The notes: generated by a model not told the origin, from the sequence alone. DNA of 64,000 bases from a virus (IMGVR_UViG_3300012943_000028:240642-304641), one strand, 5' to 3'. Shown: positions 2,994-64,000, counted from the first letter of the stretch. Program-made: numbers and translations.

Positions 2994-3553
2994 GCGGCCT
3001 CCTTCTGCTTGAACTCCATCACGGCGTGGTACTGGTGCTTGAGCACCTTGCTAGTGAACAGCTCGTACTCGCTCGGCATGGAGAGGATGTAGTCAAACGT
3101 GTGGGCGAGGTTGTTCTCCAGCAGCGCAATGTTGGCCTCGCGCTTGATGTTCTCCTCGCTTGGTTCAGCTGGCTCTTCAGGAACTTCGGGCACGTACACG
3201 AGCCAGCTCCACAGCCAGAAGGTGCTGCGCTTCTTGTCGAGGGCCTTGATGCGCTCTTCCTGCTTGGTGATGTACCCTTGGAGGGCGGCGACGTACGCCT
3301 TGTCAAGGGTCGCCCTCTCGGCAGCGAGCACCTCATCACGAAGTAGCTGCAGCCCTTTCGATGCGTCGCTCTTGAGCGAGACGACGAAGGAGTGGAAGGC
3401 GCGCCGCTCGTCACCATCATCGAACATGATGACGGTCTCGCTGCGGTTGTACGCGCGGCGGACCGACTCGTAGACAGGGTCGTCATAGCCGCAGCAACCT
3501 ACGTACTCACGCTCCCAGCGGTGCTCAACCCAGCGGTTGGTGTGCTCGTACAC
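2990..3553 (-). CDS. hypothetical protein
   Basis: 187-aa ORF. Confidence 0.5.
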   Translation of the reverse strand: MYEHTNRWVEHRWEREYVGCCGYDDPVYESVRRAYNRSETVIMFDDGDERRAFHSFVVSLKSDASKGLQLLRDEVLAAERATLDKAYVAALQGYITKQEERIKALDKKRSTFWLWSWLVYVPEVPEEPAEPSEENIKREANIALLENNLAHTFDYILSMPSEYELFTSKVLKHQYHAVMEFKQKEAA

Positions 3554-3555
3554 GT

Positions 3556-4185
3556 TCAGCTCCCGACACCGATGTACGACTCGTACTGCTCATTGAGCAT
3601 TGCGAGGTAGCTGACGATGTAGTTCTGCTGGCGGCGCAGTGCCTCCATCTGCTTCTCGATGATGCCCTGCGGCGGCACCTCGTTGCGGAAGAAGTCGAGG
3701 TGGTAGCGCTCGGCGTGGATGGCCCAGCTCTCGGCGATGTGGAGGATGTAGTCACGCACCGTCTCGTCGCCATCCTCGGCCTCGGCCGGGCAGAAGAGCC
3801 AGCGGTCTTCCTTCGAACCGCTGCCGCTCTTGTCCCAGATGCGGTAGCGAATCCAGCCGGTCGGCGCCTTCGGCAGCGCTTCCTCGGCATGCTTGAAGGA
3901 GCGGATGTGGCTGAGCATGACCAGCTTCGTCGTGCTGGGCACGCTCATGTCCGGGTTCAGGAGGTCCTTGCTCGGCTTGAGCCACACCTCGGCGTTCTCG
4001 CCTGACGCCTCGATGCCGAGCAGCCTGAAGAAGTGCCAGTCACCGGTACGGCCAGGTGCGGCCCACTCGATGTAGATTTCGTGGCCGATCAGCGCCATCA
4101 GGGACTTGCCCTTGTCGCTCGTGCCGGCGAAGATCGGTGACCAGCCTTTCGGACGGGCGCCTGGTTCGAGGGTCGATGTGGACAT
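3556..4185 (-). CDS. hypothetical protein
   Basis: 209-aa ORF. Confidence 0.5.
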   Translation of the reverse strand: MSTSTLEPGARPKGWSPIFAGTSDKGKSLMALIGHEIYIEWAAPGRTGDWHFFRLLGIEASGENAEVWLKPSKDLLNPDMSVPSTTKLVMLSHIRSFKHAEEALPKAPTGWIRYRIWDKSGSGSKEDRWLFCPAEAEDGDETVRDYILHIAESWAIHAERYHLDFFRNEVPPQGIIEKQMEALRRQQNYIVSYLAMLNEQYESYIGVGS

Positions 4186-4988: not shown

Positions 4989-6363
4989 ACTTGAACTCCT
5001 TCAGCTCGCGACGGAACATCTCGTCGGCGGAATCCGCCTCGAGGGAGGCGAGGACCTTCTTCAGGTCGGCGACCTCGTTCTTGAGCTCGTCGATCTTGTC
5101 CTTCGTGAGGTTCCACATCTGCATCTGCAGCAGGCGGTCGTAGTCGACGAACTTGTTCTTGAGCAGCAGCTCGACAAGGTCGTCCTTCTTGCGATTGCGG
5201 AACTTGTCCACGTTGTCGAGGTAGAAGAGGATGAAGCGCAGCTTCTCGCTCATCCACCTGATGGACTCCTTGGTGGTGGCGATCTGCAGCTGCCGACGGT
5301 CTTCGTAGCGGGCGACTCGCCAGGTGGTGAAGCGCTCGATGATGTCCTCGACCGAGTCGAACCGCTTCAGCGTGCCGTCGATGTCCCAGAGCGTGTAGTT
5401 CTCCGTGTCACGCGCAACCAGCTTGAACTTGCGGTACAGCTCCTCGACGTCGAGGGCGGTGGTGCTGCGCGGGACGGTGATGGTGAAGTCGAACTTCGTC
5501 TCGTCAGTCTTGCCGATGTCGTAGTCCTTGACGAAGCCGCTCTCCTCGAGCTTGTGGAGCGTGTCCTTGAAGTCGTCGAGGTAGGTGCCGACTGGAAGTT
5601 CGGTCACCTTGATGGTGGTCGAGTTGACGACCTCCAGCTTGCCAGTGATCACGACCTGGCCCGTTTCTGGGTTGCGCTCGATCGTGCCGCTGAAGCCCTT
5701 GTACCAGGGAGTCAGCGTGCCGGCCTTCAGCTTCTTGCCGTCGAGGACCTTCAGCACGGCATCACGCACGTGCAGTGGGTGGTACGCCATGATCAGTGAG
5801 GCGTGACCAGTGCCGGTGCCGACCGAGCCGTTGATGAGGGCGATCGGCAGCAGTGGCGCGTACGTCTTCGGTTCGATCTTCTCGCCGTCCGTCTCGTTGT
5901 GCTCGAGGATGGCGTCGTCGGCCTTGTTGAAGAGAGAGCGGAAGTAGGGTGAGAGCTTCGTCTCGATGTACCTCGCGGCGGCAGGCTCTGCTGTCAGGCG
6001 ACTGCCGAACTGGCCTTCAGGTACGAAGAGGTTCATGTTGTTCGAGCCAGCGTAGTTCGTAGCGAGGCCGACGATGGTGCTCTGCATCGAACCGATACCG
6101 TGGTGGTAGTCGGTGCTGGCGGCGATGGCGGCGGCGAGACGCTCGACCTGGATCAGGCCAGCGGATTCACCACGAAGGAAGGTGCCATAGAGCGCCTTGC
6201 GCTGCGACGGCTTGAGGCCGTCCGTCAGGCGAGGGATCGAGCGAACGTTGTCGTACAGCGAGAACTCCTTGAAGGCAGAGTTCATGAAGTGCTGCGCGCG
6301 AATCTGGCGGCTGGCACGATATGCAGCGGAATCAGTCATCGTGTTGGTTCCCTTTGTTGCCAT
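4978..6363 (-). CDS. DNA topoisomerase II medium subunit (T4 gp52-like, GyrA-like breakage-reunion domain)
   Basis: Contains DGLKPSQRK (GyrA/ParC active-site region). The length and domain order fit the T4 gp52 family. The start is uncertain: ATG at 6363 (MATKG; leaderless, 6 nt after the -10) or 6339 (MTDSAAY, with an AAAGGGAA ribosome-binding site). The ORF-track start at 6399 lies upstream of the predicted promoter -10. Confidence 0.85.
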   Translation of the reverse strand: MATKGTNTMTDSAAYRASRQIRAQHFMNSAFKEFSLYDNVRSIPRLTDGLKPSQRKALYGTFLRGESAGLIQVERLAAAIAASTDYHHGIGSMQSTIVGLATNYAGSNNMNLFVPEGQFGSRLTAEPAAARYIETKLSPYFRSLFNKADDAILEHNETDGEKIEPKTYAPLLPIALINGSVGTGTGHASLIMAYHPLHVRDAVLKVLDGKKLKAGTLTPWYKGFSGTIERNPETGQVVITGKLEVVNSTTIKVTELPVGTYLDDFKDTLHKLEESGFVKDYDIGKTDETKFDFTITVPRSTTALDVEELYRKFKLVARDTENYTLWDIDGTLKRFDSVEDIIERFTTWRVARYEDRRQLQIATTKESIRWMSEKLRFILFYLDNVDKFRNRKKDDLVELLLKNKFVDYDRLLQMQMWNLTKDKIDELKNEVADLKKVLASLEADSADEMFRRELKEFKYVS

Positions 6364-54626: not shown

Positions 54627-56243
54627 TTAGAAGGACTGAATCAGCTGCGGAGCGGCTGAGTCGAATCCAACGATGTCGAGCATGCCTGGGTCCTTCGGGT
54701 CAGCGATGGTGAAGTTCGTCGTAGACGTACCACACACGATCAGCTTCGCGTTCTTGACGTACTGCTTGCGGTAGCGAGCGAGGGCCTCGACCGGCTGCAT
54801 GCGACCAGCGTAGGTCTCGTTGTCAGTGATGACAACGAACTTCTCAACACCGTCCATCTTGTGCTCGAGGGCGTGCGTCATCGGCAGAGAGCAGTCGGTG
54901 CTGCCCCACGAGAATGCCTGGATGACCTTCAGCACCTTGTCGAGGCGCATTGCTGGCGTGATCTTGAGCTCACCCATCTTGTGGTTGAAACCACCGATCC
55001 AGTAGTTCGGCTCGCGCTTCGCTACGGCCAGGGCCATAACACCAGCCACCTCGGCGGCGGTGAGGTTGTTTGCGCCAGTCACGCGCGCGCCGAACATCGA
55101 GCCAGAGCAGTCCACGCCGATGAGGTGACCCTTACCGGTTGACTCAATGAACTCGAACGACTCGTAGAACGCATCGTTCAGGGCGTCAAGCACCTGCTGA
55201 ACTGGAGTCCAGGTCAGCGAGCCCTTGTCACCATGACCCTGCTTGTACTGGTTGAAGGCGTTGAGGATCGTGATCGGGTGAACACGGCCTGCCTTGATCG
55301 CCTCCTTGTCAGTCAGCTTCTCGATGACGACCTTCATGTCGGCCGACAGCGGCTTGAGCACACCCACATTCGTGAGCTGGCCCAGCTTGCGGATGAGTGC
55401 CGTCATACCCATGCCTGGGAGCAGGGCTGACATCACCTTCACATCACGCTGCAGCTCAGTTGGGATCATCTCCCAAGTGATTGCGTCGTTCGACTCGATC
55501 AGCTTGATGGCCTTCTTCGCATCGGCACCCTTGAGCGCCTCGAAGTCGTTGAGCAGCTGCGGAACAACTGCACCAGCCTCCAGGCCTTCAGCACCCTTCA
55601 CGACGTAGCGGAAGAGGTTCGACTGAACGTCAGAGAGCGGCTTCACGTGCGCCAGGCGGAGCACGTCACGGTGAGCCCAGCCATCACGTGACTGGTACTT
55701 GAGCAGCTGGAGGGCCAGCTTGTCCTCACCACGCTTGGTGTACCACGCAGCGACACCACGCTTTGCAGCAGCGTTCCACTTGCCGAGCTCATCGAGCGCA
55801 GCAACGAACTGGAACAGGTGCGTGCCGATACGGCAGACCTTTGGCAGCGCCTCGTAGGCGGCCTTCACGGTCTCCTCGTTACCATGCACAGCGCACATGG
55901 CAAGAGCAAAGACCGATGGATCGTTCTTCGGAGCACGGCCGGCGAGCGACAGCTCGGTGATGCGGTTGACAGTGCGGACACCGTCAGCCTTGATGCACTC
56001 GAGAAGGTTCTTCGACGCGCCGAGGGTCAGCTTCTTGGCAGAAGCGTAGTACGAAGGCGTGTCTGAGCCGAGGATCAGGAAGCGGTCGAGGTAGCCCCAC
56101 TGATCAAGCTGGAAGGTCATTCCGCCTGCAGAGTTGCGCACCATTTCTGCCTCGCGACCTGGGAGCGCCTGCGTCTGTGGGGTCACAGTCGAAGCTGGCT
56201 TGCGAGTGTTGGTTGAAACGTAGATTGCCGATGAACGTGCCAT
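54627..56243 (-). CDS. rsr: Ro60-related protein (TROVE domain plus C-terminal vWA-like domain), Rsr homolog
   Basis: AGGMTFQLDQWGYLDRFLILGSDTPSYYA is the TROVE signature; a vWA-type DxSGS motif (VDCSGSM) lies in the C-terminal part. Start set at ATG 56243, preceded by an AAGGAG ribosome-binding site. The ORF-track extension to 56390 lacks a ribosome-binding site. Confidence 0.8.
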   Translation of the reverse strand: MARSSAIYVSTNTRKPASTVTPQTQALPGREAEMVRNSAGGMTFQLDQWGYLDRFLILGSDTPSYYASAKKLTLGASKNLLECIKADGVRTVNRITELSLAGRAPKNDPSVFALAMCAVHGNEETVKAAYEALPKVCRIGTHLFQFVAALDELGKWNAAAKRGVAAWYTKRGEDKLALQLLKYQSRDGWAHRDVLRLAHVKPLSDVQSNLFRYVVKGAEGLEAGAVVPQLLNDFEALKGADAKKAIKLIESNDAITWEMIPTELQRDVKVMSALLPGMGMTALIRKLGQLTNVGVLKPLSADMKVVIEKLTDKEAIKAGRVHPITILNAFNQYKQGHGDKGSLTWTPVQQVLDALNDAFYESFEFIESTGKGHLIGVDCSGSMFGARVTGANNLTAAEVAGVMALAVAKREPNYWIGGFNHKMGELKITPAMRLDKVLKVIQAFSWGSTDCSLPMTHALEHKMDGVEKFVVITDNETYAGRMQPVEALARYRKQYVKNAKLIVCGTSTTNFTIADPKDPGMLDIVGFDSAAPQLIQSF

Positions 56244-56790
56244 GTGATATCTCCTTGATGACGGCTGCCACTGCGGCAGCAAAGAACTTAACTTAGAGAG
56301 GCTGACTCCGACAAAGGTTAGTGTCGGGCCTTCGGATACTTCAGCTGCGGCCAGGTTTGCAACCCTAACCGCGTGTTGCCGCTGGGACAACGCTTGGTTC
56401 CTACACCAGTTGATTTGGCAACTGGTAACCTATCGACTTAATTCGTGTCGCAACTATTGGGTGTTTCAGTCCCACAAATATCGAGTGTTCTACCTCGCAC
56501 TATCTCTTGTTGGGTTGTTGCGGCATACGCCTGGGCCGGTCAAGAGAACCCGCATGCGATTCGGCACATGCGCCTATCCGATCACAAACTGCTGGTCTGC
56601 TTTCGGAACCTACCGTTAAGTATTGGGTAACCAACACCATCGGTGAAGTCAGCTTTTCTAAGTCAAGTTTTCGAAGATGAAGAGTTCAGAGAAGGGAACA
56701 AAAGAGTACAAGTCGTTCATAACCAAGATAACCAACTTGTTCCGGTTCCAAAGAACTCTTTAAGATGAGAATTCTACCACAGAGGTGCGT
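56244..56790 (-). ncRNA. candidate Y-RNA-like noncoding RNA locus (ORF-free region adjacent to rsr)
   Basis: About 550 nt without a credible minus-strand ORF in an otherwise gene-dense genome. It contains several stem-loops (GGTTAG...CTAACC, CCAGTTG...CAACTGG) and UCCGAAGG / CUUGACC-like segments on the minus strand. Bacterial and phage Rsr genes are usually accompanied by Y RNAs. Confidence 0.35.
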
Positions 56791-60847: not shown

Positions 60848-61288
60848 CTATACCAGCGCAGCGGCCTTCCTGACAATGTGCTGCTGTGGCTGACGACCCT
60901 TCTTGACGAAGTCCTTGGCTGTCAGCCAGGCGGTCTCAGCTGTTTCGTGCGTTGGCTCTTTGAAGTTGTCTTTCTTCTTGATCTCGCCCATGTACACTGA
61001 CATGGTGTAGACCTCTTCAGCCCCGCGCATCTTACCACGCCATACGAGTTGAACAGTATCGTCCTTGACGTTTGAGCGGCGCAGGCCAAGTTCCTCTTTG
61101 GCCTCACGGAGGGCGGCGTCAAGCGATGTCTCACCACTTTCCAATCCACCCTTGGCGATCTGGAACTGGGCGCCACCAAACTTGGCCTTCGATGGCTTCA
61201 TGAAGTAAAACACTGGCTCGTCATCTTCAATGACGTATGGCAGAAAGCCTGCACGTTCGGTGATCTTTGCCACTTCAAGAAGCTTCAT
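60848..61288 (-). CDS. Nudix hydrolase
   Basis: GGLESGETSLDAALREAKEELGL matches the Nudix box GX5EX7REUXEEXGU. ORF trimmed to the internal Met MKLLEVAK. Confidence 0.75.
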   Translation of the reverse strand: MKLLEVAKITERAGFLPYVIEDDEPVFYFMKPSKAKFGGAQFQIAKGGLESGETSLDAALREAKEELGLRRSNVKDDTVQLVWRGKMRGAEEVYTMSVYMGEIKKKDNFKEPTHETAETAWLTAKDFVKKGRQPQQHIVRKAAALV

Positions 61289-61638
61289 ACGGCAAACGAT
61301 GAGCCGCAACCGCATGAGCCTGTTGCGTTCGGGTTGACGATCTTGAACGTTGAGCCCATGATGTCCTCAACATAATCGATGGATGCGCCATCAAGATAGT
61401 TTCCAGAGATAGCGTCGACGATGAACAGCACCCCATGCTGTGAAACGAGGTTATCACCGTCTTCAAACTCACTTTCGAAGGCAAAACCGTACTTCATACC
61501 TGAACACCCACCGCCCTCAACATAGACGCGCAGACCTTTATTGTTCGGTCCATTGCTTCCGGGATTTGGGTTGATAGGGTTCTGCTCGAGCAGTGAGGCA
61601 ACCTTCTTTGCTGCGGCTTCGGTGATGGTCAAATTCAT
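61285..61638 (-). CDS. erpA: A-type iron-sulfur cluster carrier (ErpA/IscA/HesB family)
   Basis: GGGCSGMKYGFAF...VDAISGNYLDGASIDYVED...FKIVNPNATGSCGCGSSF carries the three conserved Cys of HesB-family proteins. Confidence 0.8.
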   Translation of the reverse strand: MNLTITEAAAKKVASLLEQNPINPNPGSNGPNNKGLRVYVEGGGCSGMKYGFAFESEFEDGDNLVSQHGVLFIVDAISGNYLDGASIDYVEDIMGSTFKIVNPNATGSCGCGSSFAV

Positions 61639-61964
61639 GCTACGGCCTTCGTGAGCTTCTTCCAGATGAGTTCGAGGACGTCGTTAGACACTGCATCTGG
61701 ATGGTCAGCTGAATAGTCGACACCACCACGGATGTCGTGCGTCTCTGGTTTGGTGCGCCAGCTTTCAGTCAGAGCATTCGTATGCCACAGACCGTAGGTG
61801 TTGCGAATCCACTGGCCAACGGAGTGGTGCATGGCACACACGTTGTCGAGAGAGTGTTTCGTAACCCATACCTTGTCTTCATCGCTCATCTTGCTGATGA
61901 CGTCATCCGCAATGCCTTCGATGGTGTTGATGTTGGAGAGTTCCATGTCTGTATTTATCTCCAC
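61635..61964 (-). CDS. hypothetical protein
   Basis: 109-aa ORF. Confidence 0.45.
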   Translation of the reverse strand: MEINTDMELSNINTIEGIADDVISKMSDEDKVWVTKHSLDNVCAMHHSVGQWIRNTYGLWHTNALTESWRTKPETHDIRGGVDYSADHPDAVSNDVLELIWKKLTKAVA

Positions 61965-62629
61965 AAAAGTTGGAAGTTACCTGCTAGAACTGCGTCAGTC
62001 GGTGCCTGCCGTTCAGTGCGGTGGTCTTTGACGATGTTGTCTTGGAAGCGATAGGTACGAATCTTGTCGCCCCTCTCACCACTTCCAACCTGCTGTTTTC
62101 TATCAACTGCCATTGTATCACGAACCTGTTGGTGTTGGAACTGGTTCAACCTGCGCAGAATTTCTTCCTTCGCCTGTTGAAGCGAGCTCTGTCTGCTCCT
62201 AGTTTGTGACGTGACAATGACTCCACTTTTGATGTGGGTGATGCGGCAAGAGTTTTGGTGCTTGTTGCGGTGTTGACCACCGGCGCCTGAGCCCGAGTAC
62301 CACTCTACCTTGAAGTCACGGTCATTGAATTCAACTCGCTTTGTCTCAAGCGGGTTGATGACGGCGACGGTCACGGTAGACGAGTGGACTCGCCCATTGC
62401 GTTCAGTTGGTGGTATGCGCTGGATGCGGTGGCCTCCGGCTTCTCCATCTAGAACATGGAGGTTGTCGCCTTCGACCTCGATCGTTGCTTCCCCAAGACG
62501 CGGGAAAGCGAGCCGATACTTTCAGCCGACCTTGAGAAGGTACTTCGTGTATGCGTTGGCCAAGTCTCTTACGAAGAGCTTGGAGTCTGCTCCGCCTTCT
62601 GCGGAACGAATTTCGATGATGCGCTTCAT
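61955..62629 (-). CDS. class I peptide-chain release-factor homolog (domains 2-4 only) interrupted by an in-frame TGA at 62522-62524
   Basis: Reading from ATG 62629 gives MKRIIEIRSAEGGADSKLFVRDLANAYTKYLLKVG-TGA-KYRLAFPRLGEATIEVEGDNLHVLDGEAGGHRIQRIPPTERNGRVHSSTVTVAVINPLE...SGSGAGGQHRNKHQNSCRITHIKSGVIVTSQ...IRTYRFQDNIVKDHRT. It has the GGQ motif and a PxT-type (PPT) codon-recognition tripeptide. The TGA aligns with the conserved Trp of GWK in RF1/RF2, and the frame is identical before and after it. Confidence 0.6.
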
Positions 62630-62877
62630 GTTCGCTCCTTTAGTCGTGGACATTCTTTGAGAATCACAATCCACATTTCTCGCGTTTGAGTAAATGCTTC
62701 TTGCTTTTGGTTGAGGGACTTCATCTGTTCGAGAAGCCCTGGGGATGGGGAAAGTTTCAAGCGCTTGAGCTCTAGGAGCTCGGCGTTGACTTGCGCTATG
62801 CGCTCACCTATCTCGGCGAGGCGATCGTCAATGCGTTGGAGTTGATCTATATCAACAGCTTGATGTTCATGTGGCAA
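62626..62877 (-). CDS. hypothetical coiled-coil protein
   Basis: 83-aa ORF directly downstream of the tRNA. Confidence 0.45.
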   Translation of the reverse strand: MPHEHQAVDIDQLQRIDDRLAEIGERIAQVNAELLELKRLKLSPSPGLLEQMKSLNQKQEAFTQTREMWIVILKECPRLKERT

Positions 62878-62889
62878 GATTCCGGTAGG

Positions 62890-62964
62890 TGGTGCTCGCT
62901 GTAGGGATCGAACCTACGACCTCTTCTATGTCAAAGAAGTGCTCTACCACTGAGCTAAGCGAGC
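62890..62964 (-). tRNA. tRNA-Val (anticodon GAC)
   Basis: Minus strand GCTCGCT-TA-GCTC-AGTGGTA-GAGC-A-CTTCT-TTGACAT-AGAAG-AGGTC-GTAGG-TTCGATC-CCTAC-AGCGAGC-A-CCA gives a full cloverleaf with canonical U8, GG in the D-loop, U33/A37, TTCGATC T-loop and an encoded CCA. Confidence 0.8.
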
Positions 62965-63455
62965 CCGAGTTTCTTCATCTTCTTCTTGATCCAGTCCTTC
63001 TTGACTGGGCTCAAGTGATCGTAAAACGTAATTCCATTCAGGTGATCAAGCTCATGCTGAAAGCAGACTGCGTCAATGCCATCAAGCGTAAGCTCAAACT
63101 CTTCAAACTTGTCGTCACGAGCCTTCACCTTTACCCAGCTTGGGCGCTTCACGATGGCAAACAGGCCAGGGAAGCTCAAGCAGCCTTCGTTGAAGGGCAC
63201 GATCTCTGTCGATGCTTCAACGATCTCTGGGTTGAAGAACACACGGCGCTCCATCTTTCCACCCATGGAACTTGTGTCCATGATGAAGATGCGGAACGGG
63301 TATCCAATCTGAATGGCCGAAAGCCCAATGCCATTCTGGCGCTTCATCACCTCAAACATCTCAACGATCGTCGCCTCATCAACGTTAGTGATGCGGGAAA
63401 CCGGGTTGCTGATCATCTTCAGCGTCTTGTCTGGGTAGTGAAGAACTTTCATCAA
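62955..63455 (-). CDS. def: peptide deformylase
   Basis: GIGLSAIQIG (motif 1), EGCLSFPG (motif 2) and QHELDHLNG (HExxH motif 3). Confidence 0.85.
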   Translation of the reverse strand: MMKVLHYPDKTLKMISNPVSRITNVDEATIVEMFEVMKRQNGIGLSAIQIGYPFRIFIMDTSSMGGKMERRVFFNPEIVEASTEIVPFNEGCLSFPGLFAIVKRPSWVKVKARDDKFEEFELTLDGIDAVCFQHELDHLNGITFYDHLSPVKKDWIKKKMKKLGLA

Positions 63456-63556
63456 GGTGGTGCCCTCACACAGAATCGAACTGTGGTTTCAGCCTTACCA
63501 AAGCCGCGTAATAGCCACTATACTATGAGGGCATAATCTCGTACATCTCTATTTAT

Positions 63557-63632
63557 TGGAGCGCCCAGTGGGAATCGGACCCACGACCTTCGCCTTCGGA
63601 TGACGACGCTCTATCCACTGAGCTACAGGCGC
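63557..63632 (-). tRNA. tRNA-Arg (anticodon CCG)
   Basis: Minus strand GCGCCTG-TA-GCTC-AGTGGATA-GAGC-G-TCGTC-ATCCGAA-GGCGA-AGGTC-GTGGG-TCCGATT-CCCAC-TGGGCGC-T-CCA gives a cloverleaf with two G-U pairs in the acceptor stem. The T-loop has C at position 55 (unusual). Confidence 0.7.
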
Positions 63633-63653
63633 ATTGGAACCACGGTAAATACA

Positions 63654-64000
63654 CCATGGAAACCGTCATTGAACATTACATGAACCGTCTGGATTCTCGC
63701 CGTGGTGCACTGCACCAGTGGTGCGGAACAGACAATGCAGAATCGTACCGTGAGCAACATGGCAATGGTCCAAATCCGTTCAAGCCGGAGGACTTCGATT
63801 ACCGCTTCAACTCAAATGGGTTCAGGTGCGACGAGTTCACAGAAGAAAGCGAGCTGCCGGTTCTATTCAACGGCTGCAGCATCACTGAAGGGATAGGAGT
63901 TCCTGTCACTGGAACTTGGGCCTATCAGCTCGTTGAGAAGCTGCGCGCTGCAACTGGCAAGAAGATTCCATTCTGGAACATTGCCATTGGCGGTGGTGGA
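63654..64000 (+). CDS. SGNH/GDSL-like hydrolase paralog 5, 3' end truncated by window edge
   Basis: METVIEHYMN...GPNPFKPEDFDYRFNSNGFRCDEFTEESELPVLFNGCSITEGIGVP...RAATGKKIPFWNIAIGGGG is strongly similar to the gene 15702..16505 product. Open to the window end, so absent from the ORF track. Confidence 0.5.

What the first reader, a model, noticed from the sequence alone, without database searches (positions are those of the whole stretch)
61955..63632. Translation-takeover cluster: release-factor homolog, peptide deformylase and two tRNAs in a row
Within 1.7 kb on one strand sit the RF homolog, a small coiled-coil ORF, tRNA-Val(GAC), peptide deformylase and tRNA-Arg(CCG). The 5' end of tRNA-Val overlaps the last four codons of def by 10 nt. 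The tRNAs are not suppressors, so they do not explain the UGA in the RF gene. tRNA-Arg(CCG) reads the rare CGG codon, consistent with codon-usage compensation for a GC-rich phage. Its T-loop has C55 instead of the near-universal U55. Co-localisation of termination, deformylation and decoding functions suggests a dedicated module that adjusts host translation during infection.
Basis: partly seen in the sequence, partly recalled or inferred. Interest (0 to 1): 0.55.

Follow-up and report, generated by a model that had tools for sequence, protein, structure and literature searches.

The report
Phage tRNA island with recoded release factor
This stretch is the tail end of a roughly 29-gene phage tRNA island that also carries a peptide deformylase fused to tRNAs at both ends and a shortened RF1-type release factor whose gene always contains an in-frame UGA stop, a conserved recoding feature I could not find described.

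Summary
A third tRNA, Thr(GGU) at 63458-63532, was missed. A 94%-identical contig shows 26 more tRNA genes just beyond the window end. CGG is the rarest Arg codon in the phage's own genes, so codon compensation by "two tRNAs" does not hold.

def is intact. Its Shine-Dalgarno sequence lies inside tRNA-Thr, and its last 10 nt are the 5' end of tRNA-Val. The same layout is found in two relatives.

The release factor is RF1-like with PPT and GGQ motifs, but it lacks domain 1. Its in-frame UGA is codon 36, where cellular RF1 has Trp. In 73 of 73 distinct homologues from viral contigs, codon 36 is TGA. It is never followed by U. Homologues in three bacterial genomes also have TGA there. The gene ends in TAA in 72 of 74 cases. 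Codons before the UGA are under purifying selection. No tRNA with a UCA anticodon was found among 579 neighbouring tRNAs. The phage itself uses TGA as its commonest stop codon.

Best reading: a co-oriented, probably co-transcribed tRNA and translation-factor island. The release factor is made only by UGA-to-Trp readthrough, so its level should depend on host RF2 activity. This step is inferred, not shown.

The parts
63557..63632 (-). tRNA-Arg(CCG) with an encoded CCA end and C55 in the T-loop (TCCGATT)
   Evidence: ARAGORN. Rfam RF00005 scores 57.4 bits against a cut-off of 29. The sequence is identical in L101, while L006 has U55.
Its encoded CCA ends 2 nt before the def TTG.
   Evidence: ARAGORN. 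Rfam 59.9 bits. Present at the same place in L006 and L101.
63463..63467 (-). GAGGG, a likely Shine-Dalgarno sequence for def. It lies inside the 3' acceptor strand of tRNA-Thr, 7 nt before TTG 63455 and 10 nt before ATG 63452.
   Evidence: Read directly from the sequence. Its function is inferred.
62955..63455 (-). Peptide deformylase (def), 165-166 aa, with all three catalytic motifs
   Evidence: Pfam PF01327 at 2.6e-49. TIGR00079 scores 157.2 against a cut-off of 103.95. Motifs start at residues 41, 89 and 133. The protein is 75% identical to that of L006.
62955..62964 (-). 10-nt overlap. The last base of a Gly codon, then Leu, Ala and the TAG stop of def, are also bases 1-10 of tRNA-Val.
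   Evidence: The junction is identical in L006 and L101.
62890..62964 (-). tRNA-Val(GAC) with an encoded CCA end
   Evidence: ARAGORN. Rfam 73.1 bits. 100% identical in L006 and L101.
62626..62877 (-). 83-codon ORF predicted to form a helical hairpin. Its TGA stop overlaps the RF ATG (ATGA).
   Evidence: Compared with L006, 55 of 82 residues are identical, 20 codon changes are synonymous, and the other two frames are closed. AlphaFold gives pLDDT 85.6 with two long helices. No Pfam or PHROG family matches.
62635..62640 (-). AAGGAG Shine-Dalgarno sequence, 5 nt before the RF ATG at 62629
   Evidence: An SD-like sequence is present in 70 of 74 family members.
61955..62629 (-). RF1-type class I release factor lacking domain 1. 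It has 224 codons including UGA at codon 36, and ends in TAA.
   Evidence: Pfam PCRF (positions 103-194 of 194) and RF-1 domains. NCBIfam prfA scores 190.8 bits and covers model positions 107-332 of 347. It aligns with PDB RF1 entry 1RQ0 at residues 87-299. A model of a 68%-identical homologue superposes on ribosome-bound RF1 with TM 0.91.
62522..62524 (-). In-frame UGA at codon 36, in the context GGC-UGA-A, at the position of the conserved Trp of RF1
   Evidence: Codon 36 is TGA in 73 of 73 distinct viral homologues and in three bacterial genomes. The position aligns with the Trp in the 'KGW' segment of T. maritima RF1.
62405..62413 (-). PPT codons (residues 73-75), matching the PxT 'tripeptide anticodon' of RF1
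   Evidence: P73, P74 and T75 are invariant in 52 homologues.
62273..62281 (-). GGQ codons (residues 117-119), the peptidyl-tRNA hydrolysis motif
   Evidence: Invariant in the family alignments.

Best explanation
The stretch 61955-63632 is the promoter-distal end of a large phage tRNA island. Close relatives carry about 29 tRNAs on one strand. Two protein cassettes for translation factors are interleaved with the tRNAs.

(1) def is fused to tRNAs at both ends. Its ribosome-binding site lies inside tRNA-Thr, and its last three codons and stop codon lie inside tRNA-Val. Each primary transcript can therefore give either an intact def mRNA or mature flanking tRNAs. This resembles tRNA punctuation of mitochondrial transcripts.

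(2) A small helical-hairpin ORF is translationally coupled, through an ATGA overlap, to a minimal RF1-type release factor. This factor has domains 2-4, a PPT motif and a GGQ motif, but no domain 1.

The full-length factor can be made only if the ribosome reads UGA at codon 36 as a sense codon. The most likely reader is tRNA-Trp(CCA), acting as a near-cognate tRNA, because the site is the conserved Trp of RF1. UGA is recognised by RF2 but not by RF1-type factors. The yield of the phage factor should therefore rise when host RF2 is limiting or when tRNA-Trp is abundant. The factor's own activity would not shut the gene off.

Shown: the anatomy, the conservation, the standard genetic code in this phage, and the absence of a UGA suppressor tRNA nearby.

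Inferred: co-transcription, insertion of Trp, dependence on RF2, and UAA/UAG specificity.
For: - The tRNAs, def and the RF are verified.
- Synteny holds in L006 and in L101, with 26 and 29 co-oriented tRNAs.
- No promoter-like or terminator-like sites were found on the minus strand between 61640 and 63660.
- Codon 36 is TGA in 73 of 73 distinct viral loci. The base after it is A in 52, G in 17, C in 4 and U in 0.
- Database proteins listed with Trp at position 36 are code-4 translations of a TGA codon.
- In codons 2-35, synonymous pairwise differences (34,220) outnumber non-synonymous ones (26,018).
- The family's own terminal stop is TAA in 72 of 74 genes, against 53% TAA in neighbouring ORFs (P = 5e-18).
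- TGA is the commonest ordinary stop codon in the window (54 of 101 ORFs), and coding density is 0.91 under the standard code.
- None of the 579 nearby tRNAs has anticodon UCA.
- E11, G12, G13 and D15, which precede the UGA, and Q70, P73, P74, T75 and GGQ, which follow it, are all invariant.
- A distant huge-phage homologue (L099) has a prfB-type +1 frameshift cassette (GGAGGGG..CTT TGA C) at the equivalent position. This suggests that UGA-dependent control is a recurring design at this site.
- Of 17 distinct phage tRNA-Trp(CCA) genes near these RF genes, 11-12 have A24 paired with U11, and 6 have an unpaired 27:43 position. Both features are linked to UGA reading in PMC13092985.
Against: - No expression data exist. 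Readthrough, the inserted amino acid and the transcript structure are not shown.
- The tRNA-Trp genes of the two closest relatives (L006 and L101) look like E. coli wild type, with U11.G24 and a 5-bp anticodon stem.
- No covarying RNA structure was found after the UGA.
- RF1-like specificity is inferred only from motifs. If the factor does read UGA, the logic becomes autoregulation as in prfB.
- It is unclear why a phage whose commonest stop codon is UGA would need an extra UAA/UAG factor.
- A tRNA(UCA) could lie elsewhere in the genome, outside the regions examined.
Confidence: 0.6

Rival explanations
1. The two tRNAs supply rare codons (CGG, GUC) for a GC-rich phage. Together with the RF and def they form a dedicated module that takes over host translation.
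For: - The genes are adjacent and on one strand.
- GUC is the commonest Val codon in the phage (36%). tRNA-Val(GAC) would read 62% of Val codons.
Against: - CGG is the rarest Arg codon (8%).
- A third tRNA was missed, and the lineage carries about 29 tRNAs, including five Arg and three Val anticodons.
- GC content is only 51-55%.
- The def-RF linkage is limited to one sub-clade (def within 6 kb in 6 of 73 loci).
- The host is unknown.
Confidence: 0.12
2. An island that counters RNA damage. The tRNA array replaces host tRNAs destroyed by anticodon nucleases or other tRNA-targeting defences. The domain-1-less RF acts as a ribosome-rescue or quality-control factor on stalled ribosomes, in the manner of PrfH or ArfB, rather than as an ordinary terminator.
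For: - In the largest RF sub-clade the gene sits in a conserved run. The run holds a small ORF, the RF, a DSP-type phosphatase (45 loci), a metallophosphoesterase (33), an AAA_33 kinase (13) and a T4 Rnl1-type RNA ligase (12). This is an RNA-repair toolkit.
- A Ro60 homologue (TROVE plus vWA) lies 5.5 kb away in the window and is also present in L002.
- Like PrfH, the factor lacks domain 1.
- Phage tRNAs are known to counter tRNA-targeting defences (PMC10264068, PMC11464382, PMC11555353).
Against: - All RF1 stop-codon-reading elements are invariant (Q70, PPT, the GG-x-D segment), unlike in PrfH or ArfB.
- The PrfH model scores 56 bits against a cut-off of 167, and only over the GGQ domain.
- No RtcB gene appears among the recurrent neighbours.
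- The window's own sub-clade lacks the repair genes next to the RF.
Confidence: 0.2
3. Autoregulation as in prfB. The phage factor itself recognises UGA, so the in-frame UGA is a negative-feedback site that caps the factor's own level.
For: - An early in-frame UGA is exactly the prfB design.
- A distant phage homologue (L099) carries a full prfB-like frameshift cassette at the same position.
- UGA is universally conserved there, never UAA or UAG.
Against: - The tripeptide is PPT (RF1-type PxT), not SPF.
- The protein scores higher against prfA (190.8 bits) than against prfB (124 bits).
- The best structural matches are to RF1.
- The gene's own terminator is almost always UAA, not UGA.
Confidence: 0.15
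4. A genetic-code-change module, as described for TGA-recoded phages. The RF1 would support a switch to TGA = Trp late in infection.
For: RF1 genes occur in 'code change modules' of TGA-recoded Jade phages (bioRxiv 10.1101/2021.08.26.457843). The in-frame TGA sits at a Trp position.
Against: - TGA ends 54 of 101 ORFs in the window and 243 of 658 ORFs flanking the family's genes.
- Coding density is already 0.91 under the standard code.
- There is no tRNA(UCA) among 579 tRNAs in the family loci, 29 in L101 or 3 in the window.
- No aminoacyl-tRNA synthetase lies nearby.
Confidence: 0.03

Closest known systems
Bacterial release factor 1 (prfA)
   Same: Domains 2-4 are present, with PxT and GGQ motifs and the switch-loop region. 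Sequence E-value is 6e-46 to T. maritima RF1. A homologue's model fits ribosome-bound RF1 with TM 0.91.
   Different: It lacks the roughly 105-residue N-terminal domain 1 and the C-terminal helical extension. It scores below the NCBIfam cut-off (190.8 against 400). It has an obligatory in-frame UGA at codon 36. It is carried by phages and sits among tRNA genes.
prfB (RF2) programmed +1 frameshift autoregulation
   Same: A release-factor gene is interrupted early by an in-frame UGA, so its expression depends on inefficient UGA termination.
   Different: Here the downstream part is in the same frame, so the event is readthrough, not a +1 shift. The codon before the UGA is GGC, not the slippery CUU, and there is no internal SD 6 nt upstream. 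The factor is RF1-like, so the sensed activity (RF2) is probably not its own. A true prfB-like cassette does occur in a distant phage homologue (L099).
PrfH (RF-H) with RtcB2
   Same: It is a class I RF paralogue without domain 1. In part of the family it lies next to RNA-repair enzymes.
   Different: The canonical PxT decoding elements are retained. It fails the TIGR03072 model. The associated ligase is Rnl1-type, not RtcB. No ligase gene lies among the characterised genes flanking the RF in the window.
Translation-gene and tRNA repertoires of large or huge phages (Al-Shayeb et al. 2020, PMC7162821); cyanophage peptide deformylase (Frank et al. 2013, cited there)
   Same: A large phage carries many tRNAs together with a peptide deformylase and a release factor. 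The nearest cultured relatives by topoisomerase II are Xanthomonas and Ralstonia jumbo phages.
   Different: Those reports list RF1 and RF2 without noting a domain-1-less form or a conserved in-frame UGA. A def gene fused to tRNAs at both ends is not described there.
Programmed UGA readthrough by tRNA-Trp (for example phage Q-beta A1 protein); tRNA-Trp(CCA) variants that read UGA (G24A, 4-bp anticodon stem; PMC13092985)
   Same: A UGA in a weak context, here followed by A, G or C but never U, is decoded as Trp by a near-cognate tRNA. The Q-beta example is from my own knowledge.
   Different: Here readthrough does not add a C-terminal extension. It is needed to make any functional protein, and the readthrough site lies inside a translation termination factor.
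Mitochondrial tRNA punctuation of polycistronic transcripts
   Same: An mRNA is directly flanked by tRNAs, so tRNA processing would define the mRNA ends.
   Different: Here RNase P cleavage at tRNA-Val would remove the def stop codon altogether, and processing of tRNA-Thr would remove the def ribosome-binding site. Whether this happens is untested.

Membership tests
RF1 (prfA; TIGR00019 / NF001859) | GGQ hydrolysis motif in domain 3 | tested here: met
   GGQ at residues 117-119. Invariant in 52 homologues.
RF1 (prfA; TIGR00019 / NF001859) | PxT tripeptide and associated decoding residues in domain 2 | tested here: met
   PPT at residues 73-75. Q70, E76 and H82 are invariant. It aligns with the PVT motif of T. 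maritima RF1.
RF1 (prfA; TIGR00019 / NF001859) | N-terminal domain 1 of about 105 residues | tested here: not met
   The alignment starts at model position 107 of 347 and at RF1 residue 87-112. An SD and ATG lie directly at the start, and the upstream frame is a different gene.
RF1 (prfA; TIGR00019 / NF001859) | Score above the curated equivalog cut-off | tested here: not met
   190.8 bits against 400 for NF001859, and 185.8 against 423 for TIGR00019.
RF1 (prfA; TIGR00019 / NF001859) | Three-dimensional fold of domains 2-4 | tested here: met
   The model of the 68%-identical P0001 has pLDDT 87. It fits ribosome-bound T. thermophilus and E. coli RF1 with TM 0.91 and rmsd 2.2 A. The window protein itself could not be submitted.
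RF1 (prfA; TIGR00019 / NF001859) | Release activity specific for UAA and UAG | not testable with these tools
   Inferred only from motifs.
PrfH (TIGR03072) | Lacks domain 1 | tested here: met
PrfH (TIGR03072) | Score above the family cut-off over the full length | tested here: not met
   56.4 bits against 166.65, and only residues 96-195 align. PDB PrfH chains match at E of about 1e-6 to 1e-7, against 6e-46 for RF1.
PrfH (TIGR03072) | Operon partner RtcB RNA ligase | tested here: not met
   No RtcB gene appears among recurrent neighbours within 4 kb in 74 loci. The ligase that does recur is PF09511, the Rnl1 type. The window's flanking genes are def, DUF6794, IscA-like, NUDIX and NT5C.
prfB-type programmed frameshift | Early in-frame UGA | tested here: met
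   UGA at codon 36.
prfB-type programmed frameshift | Downstream ORF in the +1 frame, with a CUU-UGA slippery site and an internal SD | tested here: not met
   The downstream part is in frame 0 and the context is GGC-UGA-A. The cassette is present only in the distant homologue L099.
Peptide deformylase (PF01327 / TIGR00079) | Three catalytic motifs GxGxAAxQ, EGCLS and HExxH, and a score above the cut-off | tested here: met
   GIGLSAIQ at residue 41, EGCLS at 89 and HELDH at 133. 157.2 bits against 103.95.
tRNA genes | Cloverleaf detected by two independent methods | tested here: met
   ARAGORN. Rfam scores 73.1, 59.9 and 57.4 bits against a cut-off of 29.
tRNA genes | Near-universal U55 in the T-loop | tested here: not met
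   tRNA-Arg(CCG) has C55 in the window and in L101. L006 has U55.
Phage tRNA array / island | Many densely packed tRNA genes on one strand | tested here: met
   Three lie in the window. L101 (94% identical) has 29 in 6.8 kb. L006 has 26.
Stop-codon 'code change module' (Borges et al.) | Suppressor tRNA for the recoded stop codon | tested here: not met
   No tRNA(UCA) in the window, in L101 or among 579 tRNAs in the family loci.
Stop-codon 'code change module' (Borges et al.) | Many phage genes with in-frame recoded stops and a low coding density under the standard code | tested here: not met
   Coding density is 0.91 under code 11, and TGA ends 54 of 101 ORFs.

The most novel reading that the evidence does not exclude
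A widespread family of domain-1-less RF1-type release factors, carried by phages and also present in some alphaproteobacterial chromosomes, has an obligatory UGA-to-Trp readthrough site at codon 36. The family forms a sensor-actuator circuit. The gene reads the balance between host RF2 and tRNA-Trp, which is often phage-supplied and sometimes carries UGA-reading features. It converts that balance into extra, RF3-independent UAA/UAG termination capacity. This could rebalance termination during infection or time late gene expression. It would be a second, independently evolved recoding control of a release-factor gene, alongside the prfB frameshift.
Probability: 0.35. Interest if true: 0.85.

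Novelty: new variant of a known kind. Interest (0 to 1): 0.68.

Why it matters
Recoding control of a release-factor gene is a textbook case known only from the prfB +1 frameshift. Here a second design appears. It is in-frame UGA readthrough at a conserved Trp codon in a minimal RF1-type factor. It is invariant in every family member examined: 73 distinct viral loci, the window, three further metagenomic contigs and three bacterial genomes.

The finding also exposes an annotation problem. Gene callers either split this gene in two or translate it under code 4.

If the factor's level is set by RF2 activity, phages have a built-in gauge of host termination capacity. That can be tested directly with reporters and release assays. 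It could also supply a compact, RF3-independent release factor for synthetic biology.

The def gene embedded between tRNAs is a clean system for studying competition between tRNA processing and mRNA translation.

Tried and rejected
1. Split release factor. I tested whether the 83-codon upstream ORF is RF domain 1 encoded separately. Foldseek returned only generic helical hairpins and no RF. The equivalent upstream ORF in the main sub-clade is unrelated. Rejected.

2. Selenocysteine, or a readthrough-stimulating hairpin after the UGA. RNAalifold on 20 diverse sequences found only a 4-bp CGCC/GGCG helix, at -2.7 kcal/mol, with no covariation, made of conserved Arg and Gly-Glu codons. Third-codon positions +1 to +6 are more conserved than those upstream. 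This may reflect sampling bias, so it stays inconclusive.

3. Genome-wide TGA reassignment. Rejected.

4. Pseudogene. Rejected on the basis of purifying selection on both sides of the UGA and its universal conservation.

5. Finding the window's own contig. Exact searches for the window's last 50 nt found nothing in IMG/VR or JGI metagenomes. A search with the def/tRNA-Val junction then found L101 and L102, and L102 is from the same 107.7-kb contig as L006.

6. Megablast-level relatives among cultured phages. None were found. Only the tRNAs matched. PHROGs has no family for the truncated RF.

7. A Y RNA next to the Ro60 gene. Rfam found nothing.

8. Literature. Eight full-text searches, not all aimed at this question, and five papers read gave no description of a truncated phage RF with a conserved in-frame UGA. 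The library is limited to open-access papers.

9. Structure prediction of the window RF with Trp in place of the stop codon.
Full report
OBSERVATION. Everything lies on the minus strand.

ARAGORN finds three tRNA genes in the whole 64-kb window:
- tRNA-Arg(CCG) at 63632-63557;
- tRNA-Thr(GGU) at 63532-63458;
- tRNA-Val(GAC) at 62964-62890.

Rfam scores them 57.4, 59.9 and 73.1 bits against a cut-off of 29.

Between tRNA-Thr and tRNA-Val lies def (63455 or 63452 to 62955).
- Pfam Pep_deformylase gives 2.6e-49.
- TIGR00079 scores 157 bits against a cut-off of 104.
- The motifs GIGLSAIQ, EGCLS and HELDH are present.

Bases 62964-62955 (GCTCGCTTAG) are both the end of def, including its TAG stop, and bases 1-10 of tRNA-Val. 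The encoded CCA of tRNA-Thr ends 2 nt before the def TTG. The only Shine-Dalgarno-like sequence, GAGGG at 63467-63463, is part of the tRNA-Thr acceptor stem. The C55 in the tRNA-Arg T-loop is real (TCCGATT). It recurs in an independent assembly, L101, whereas L006 has U55.

Downstream of tRNA-Val there is an 83-codon ORF (62877-62626). Its TGA stop overlaps the ATG of the release-factor gene (62629-61955). That gene is preceded by AAGGAG and contains TGA as codon 36 at 62524-62522.

CONTEXT. The window is from a large phage.
- It encodes topoisomerase II subunits, a helicase and structural proteins.
- Its nearest cultured relatives by topoisomerase II are Xanthomonas phages X1 and BUDD (55% identity), XacN1 and Ralstonia phage RsoM2USA.
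- No cultured phage matches this stretch at the DNA level, apart from the tRNAs.
- GC content is 54.6% for the window and 51% for this stretch.

Two metagenomic relatives settle what the tRNAs are.
- L006 is a 107.7-kb IMG/VR contig whose RF is 85% identical. It has the same gene order: tRNA-Arg(CCG), tRNA-Thr(GGU), def, tRNA-Val(GAC) with the same 10-nt overlap, the small ORF, the RF, DUF6794, an IscA-like gene, NUDIX and NT5C. Twenty-three further tRNAs on the same strand precede this run.
- L101 is a 6.8-kb JGI contig, 94% identical to window positions 62749-64000. It runs 5.6 kb beyond the window end and carries 29 tRNAs. They include Trp(CCA), five Arg anticodons and three Val anticodons.

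The window therefore shows the last three genes of a tRNA island of about 29 genes.

CODON USAGE. I counted codons in 59 window ORFs of at least 120 codons.
- GUC is the commonest Val codon (36%), and GUC plus GUU make up 62%.
- ACC plus ACU make up 51% of Thr codons.
- CGG is the rarest Arg codon (8%).

With a near-complete tRNA set and CGG rare in the phage itself, a targeted codon-compensation reading of "two tRNAs" is not supported.

THE RELEASE FACTOR. With Trp placed at codon 36, the 224-residue product has these properties.
- It matches Pfam PCRF (positions 103-194 of 194) and RF-1.
- It matches NCBIfam prfA best (190.8 bits, model positions 107-332 of 347), then prfB (124 bits). It matches PrfH only over the GGQ domain (56 bits against a cut-off of 167).
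- Against the PDB it aligns with T. maritima RF1 residues 87-299 at E = 6e-46. Codon 36 aligns with the Trp of the 'KGW' segment.
- It has PPT at the PxT position and GGQ.
- It lacks domain 1 and the C-terminal extension.
- A model of a 68%-identical homologue (pLDDT 87) superposes on domains 2-4 of ribosome-bound RF1 with TM 0.91 and rmsd 2.2 A.

It is therefore an RF1-type factor by motifs and fold. It is not a member of the prfA equivalog family, because it lacks domain 1 and scores below the cut-off. It is not a PrfH.

THE IN-FRAME UGA IS A FAMILY TRAIT. A protein search found a large family of proteins about 222 residues long. Members appear either as 167-183-residue calls that start after the stop codon, or as 'full-length' proteins with Trp at position 36. 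The contigs encoding the full-length ones have TGA there, so these are code-4 translations.

The evidence across 80 IMG/VR loci, out of 219 confirmed hits, together with five loci fetched earlier by exact-protein look-up:
- All 73 distinct sequences have TGA at codon 36. None has TGG, TAA or TAG. The codon before it varies synonymously (GGC, GGT, GGA).
- The base after the UGA is A in 52, G in 17, C in 4 and U in 0. From my own knowledge, U is the strongest termination context in E. coli.
- In codons 2-35, synonymous pairwise differences (34,220) outnumber non-synonymous ones (26,018). E11, G12, G13 and D15 are invariant. The segment before the stop is therefore translated as part of the protein.
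- The gene's own terminator is TAA in 72 of 74 genes, against 53% TAA in neighbouring ORFs (P = 5e-18).
- These phages use TGA as a normal stop codon. It ends 54 of 101 ORFs in the window and 243 of 658 flanking ORFs. Coding density is 0.91 under the standard code.
- None of the 579 tRNAs near these genes has anticodon UCA.
- RNAalifold finds no covarying structure after the UGA.
- Homologues at 44-48% identity in the genomes of Jiella sp. LLJ827, Thalassospira xianhensis and Pararhizobium sp. BT-229 also have TGA-A at codon 36.
- A distant domain-1-less homologue in huge phage LR745208 has, at the equivalent position, a prfB-style +1 frameshift cassette (GGAGGGG TCTT TGA C). Another, in LR756504, has an in-frame TGA six codons later.

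NEIGHBOURHOOD OF THE FAMILY.
- 59 of 73 loci have at least one tRNA within 6 kb, and 24 loci have at least ten. Of the 579 tRNAs, 577 are on the RF strand.
- def is nearby in only 6 of 73 loci, mostly in the window's own sub-clade: L002, L006, L008/L009 and L021.
- In the largest sub-clade the RF sits in a conserved run: a 75-residue ORF with an ATGA overlap, the RF, a DSP-type phosphatase (45 loci), a metallophosphoesterase (33), an AAA_33 kinase (13) and a T4 Rnl1-type RNA ligase (12).
- Of 17 distinct tRNA-Trp(CCA) genes near these RFs, 11-12 have U11-A24 and 6 have an unpaired 27:43 position. Both features are linked to UGA reading (PMC13092985).
- The tRNA-Trp of L006 and L101 has neither feature.

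MECHANISM (inferred). The three tRNAs, def, the small ORF and the RF share one orientation. They have minimal or negative spacers. No promoter-like or terminator-like sites were detected between them. I read them as one transcription unit continuing from the upstream tRNA array.

def can be translated only from unprocessed precursor RNA. Maturation of the tRNA-Thr 3' end would remove its ribosome-binding site. RNase P cleavage at tRNA-Val would remove its stop codon.

The RF is translated by coupling to the small ORF, and the ribosome then meets UGA at codon 36. Host RF2 would terminate there. Near-cognate decoding by tRNA-Trp gives the full factor, with Trp at the position where RF1 has it. 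An RF1-type factor cannot read UGA, from established knowledge of the PxT and SPF rules. The site is therefore invisible to the gene's own product but visible to RF2. The terminal UAA is a strong stop that both factors can read. The output should then follow the ratio of tRNA-Trp to RF2.

Alternatives remain open. The factor might read UGA itself, which would give autoregulation as in prfB. It might also act mainly in ribosome rescue within an island that counters RNA damage. The first alternative is disfavoured by the PxT motif. The second is disfavoured by the fully retained decoding elements.

THE SMALL ORF. It is a real gene. Compared with L006, 55 of 82 residues are identical, 20 codon changes are synonymous, and the other frames are closed. 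It is predicted to form a helical hairpin (pLDDT 85.6). It shows no detectable relation to RF domain 1. Its role is unknown.

COMPARISON AND NOVELTY. Large phages are known to carry tRNAs, a peptide deformylase and RF1 or RF2 (PMC7162821). RF1 is part of 'code change modules' in TGA-recoded phages. PrfH is a known domain-1-less paralogue. Phage tRNAs are known to counter tRNA-targeting defences. I found no description of a domain-1-less RF1-type family with an invariant in-frame UGA, nor of a def gene embedded between tRNAs. PHROGs has no family for it. I rate it a new variant of a known kind.

VERDICT. Interest is 0.68.

Noticed in passing
window 54630-56390 (-): This ORF is a Ro60 homologue (Pfam TROVE 1e-33 and vWA_Ro60 1e-52), 5.5 kb downstream of the RF. 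L002 and L003 have one in the same relative position. Rfam found no Y RNA nearby.
   Followed up: partly
L099 (LR745208.1, huge phage) 3001-3595: This is a distant domain-1-less RF homologue. A prfB-like +1 frameshift cassette (GGAGGGG TCTT TGA C) sits at the position equivalent to codon 36. The PxT/SPF loop appears to be deleted (HRVQRTS----NGRIHSS).
   Followed up: partly
L100 (LR756504.1, 636-kb phage) about 3120-3130: This RF homologue (35% identical) has Phe at the codon-36 position and an in-frame TGA six codons later (PIE*RDG). I did not check whether this phage recodes TGA.
   Followed up: no
L092, L093, L094 (Jiella sp. LLJ827, Thalassospira xianhensis, Pararhizobium sp. BT-229), about 5001-5690 in each: These bacterial chromosomal copies of the truncated RF also have TGA at codon 36. 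In Jiella the flanking genes look like housekeeping genes (an RNase HI-like and a peroxiredoxin-like gene, judged by eye from the translated ORFs; no family search was run). In Pararhizobium the gene is followed by three or four tandem partial copies of the C-terminal half in which GGQ is replaced.
   Followed up: partly
L095 (Hahella MAG) 5001-5664: This is the only copy seen with TGG at codon 36. Its reading frame is broken about 8 codons later, so it may be a decaying gene or an assembly error.
   Followed up: no
tRNA-Trp(CCA) genes in L010, L012, L014, L016, L020, L022, L023, L043, L051, L061, L064, L072: Most phage tRNA-Trp genes near the RF have U11-A24, the state of the Hirsh G24A suppressor. 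Six also have an unpaired 27:43 position, giving a 4-bp anticodon stem. I did not measure how common these features are in phage or host tRNA-Trp generally.
   Followed up: partly
L017-L084 (main RF sub-clade), within 2.5 kb downstream of the RF: A conserved run of a DSP-type Cys phosphatase (HCxxGxxRS), a calcineurin-like phosphoesterase, an AAA_33 kinase and a T4 Rnl1-type RNA ligase lies here. This is an RNA-repair toolkit next to the RF.
   Followed up: partly
L073 11706-11860: ARAGORN calls two tRNAs with anticodons CUA and UUA (amber and ochre suppressor-like) about 5 kb from the RF. This is the only locus with suppressor-like tRNAs.
   Followed up: no
L006 5522-6004: The L006 copy of the small helical ORF has no ATG, GTG or TTG before its conserved part. 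Its frame overlaps the end of a 67-codon ORF that is absent from the window because of a roughly 220-nt indel. A non-canonical start or a frameshift fusion is possible.
   Followed up: partly
window 63657-64000 (+) and L006 3973-4752 (-): A 259-residue gene of unknown family (no Pfam hit) is inserted in the opposite orientation inside the tRNA array, 24 nt from the 5' end of tRNA-Arg(CCG). Transcription of the last three tRNAs may therefore run antisense through it.
   Followed up: no
window 61288-61964 (-): Directly downstream of the RF lie a DUF6794 protein and an IscA/HesB-type Fe-S assembly protein, followed by NUDIX and NT5C genes. The same set occurs in L006.
   Followed up: no
L005 143-217 and 4724-4798: ARAGORN reports two tRNA-like genes with 2-nt 'anticodons' (tt, ct). 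These are odd anticodon loops within a 21-tRNA array.
   Followed up: no
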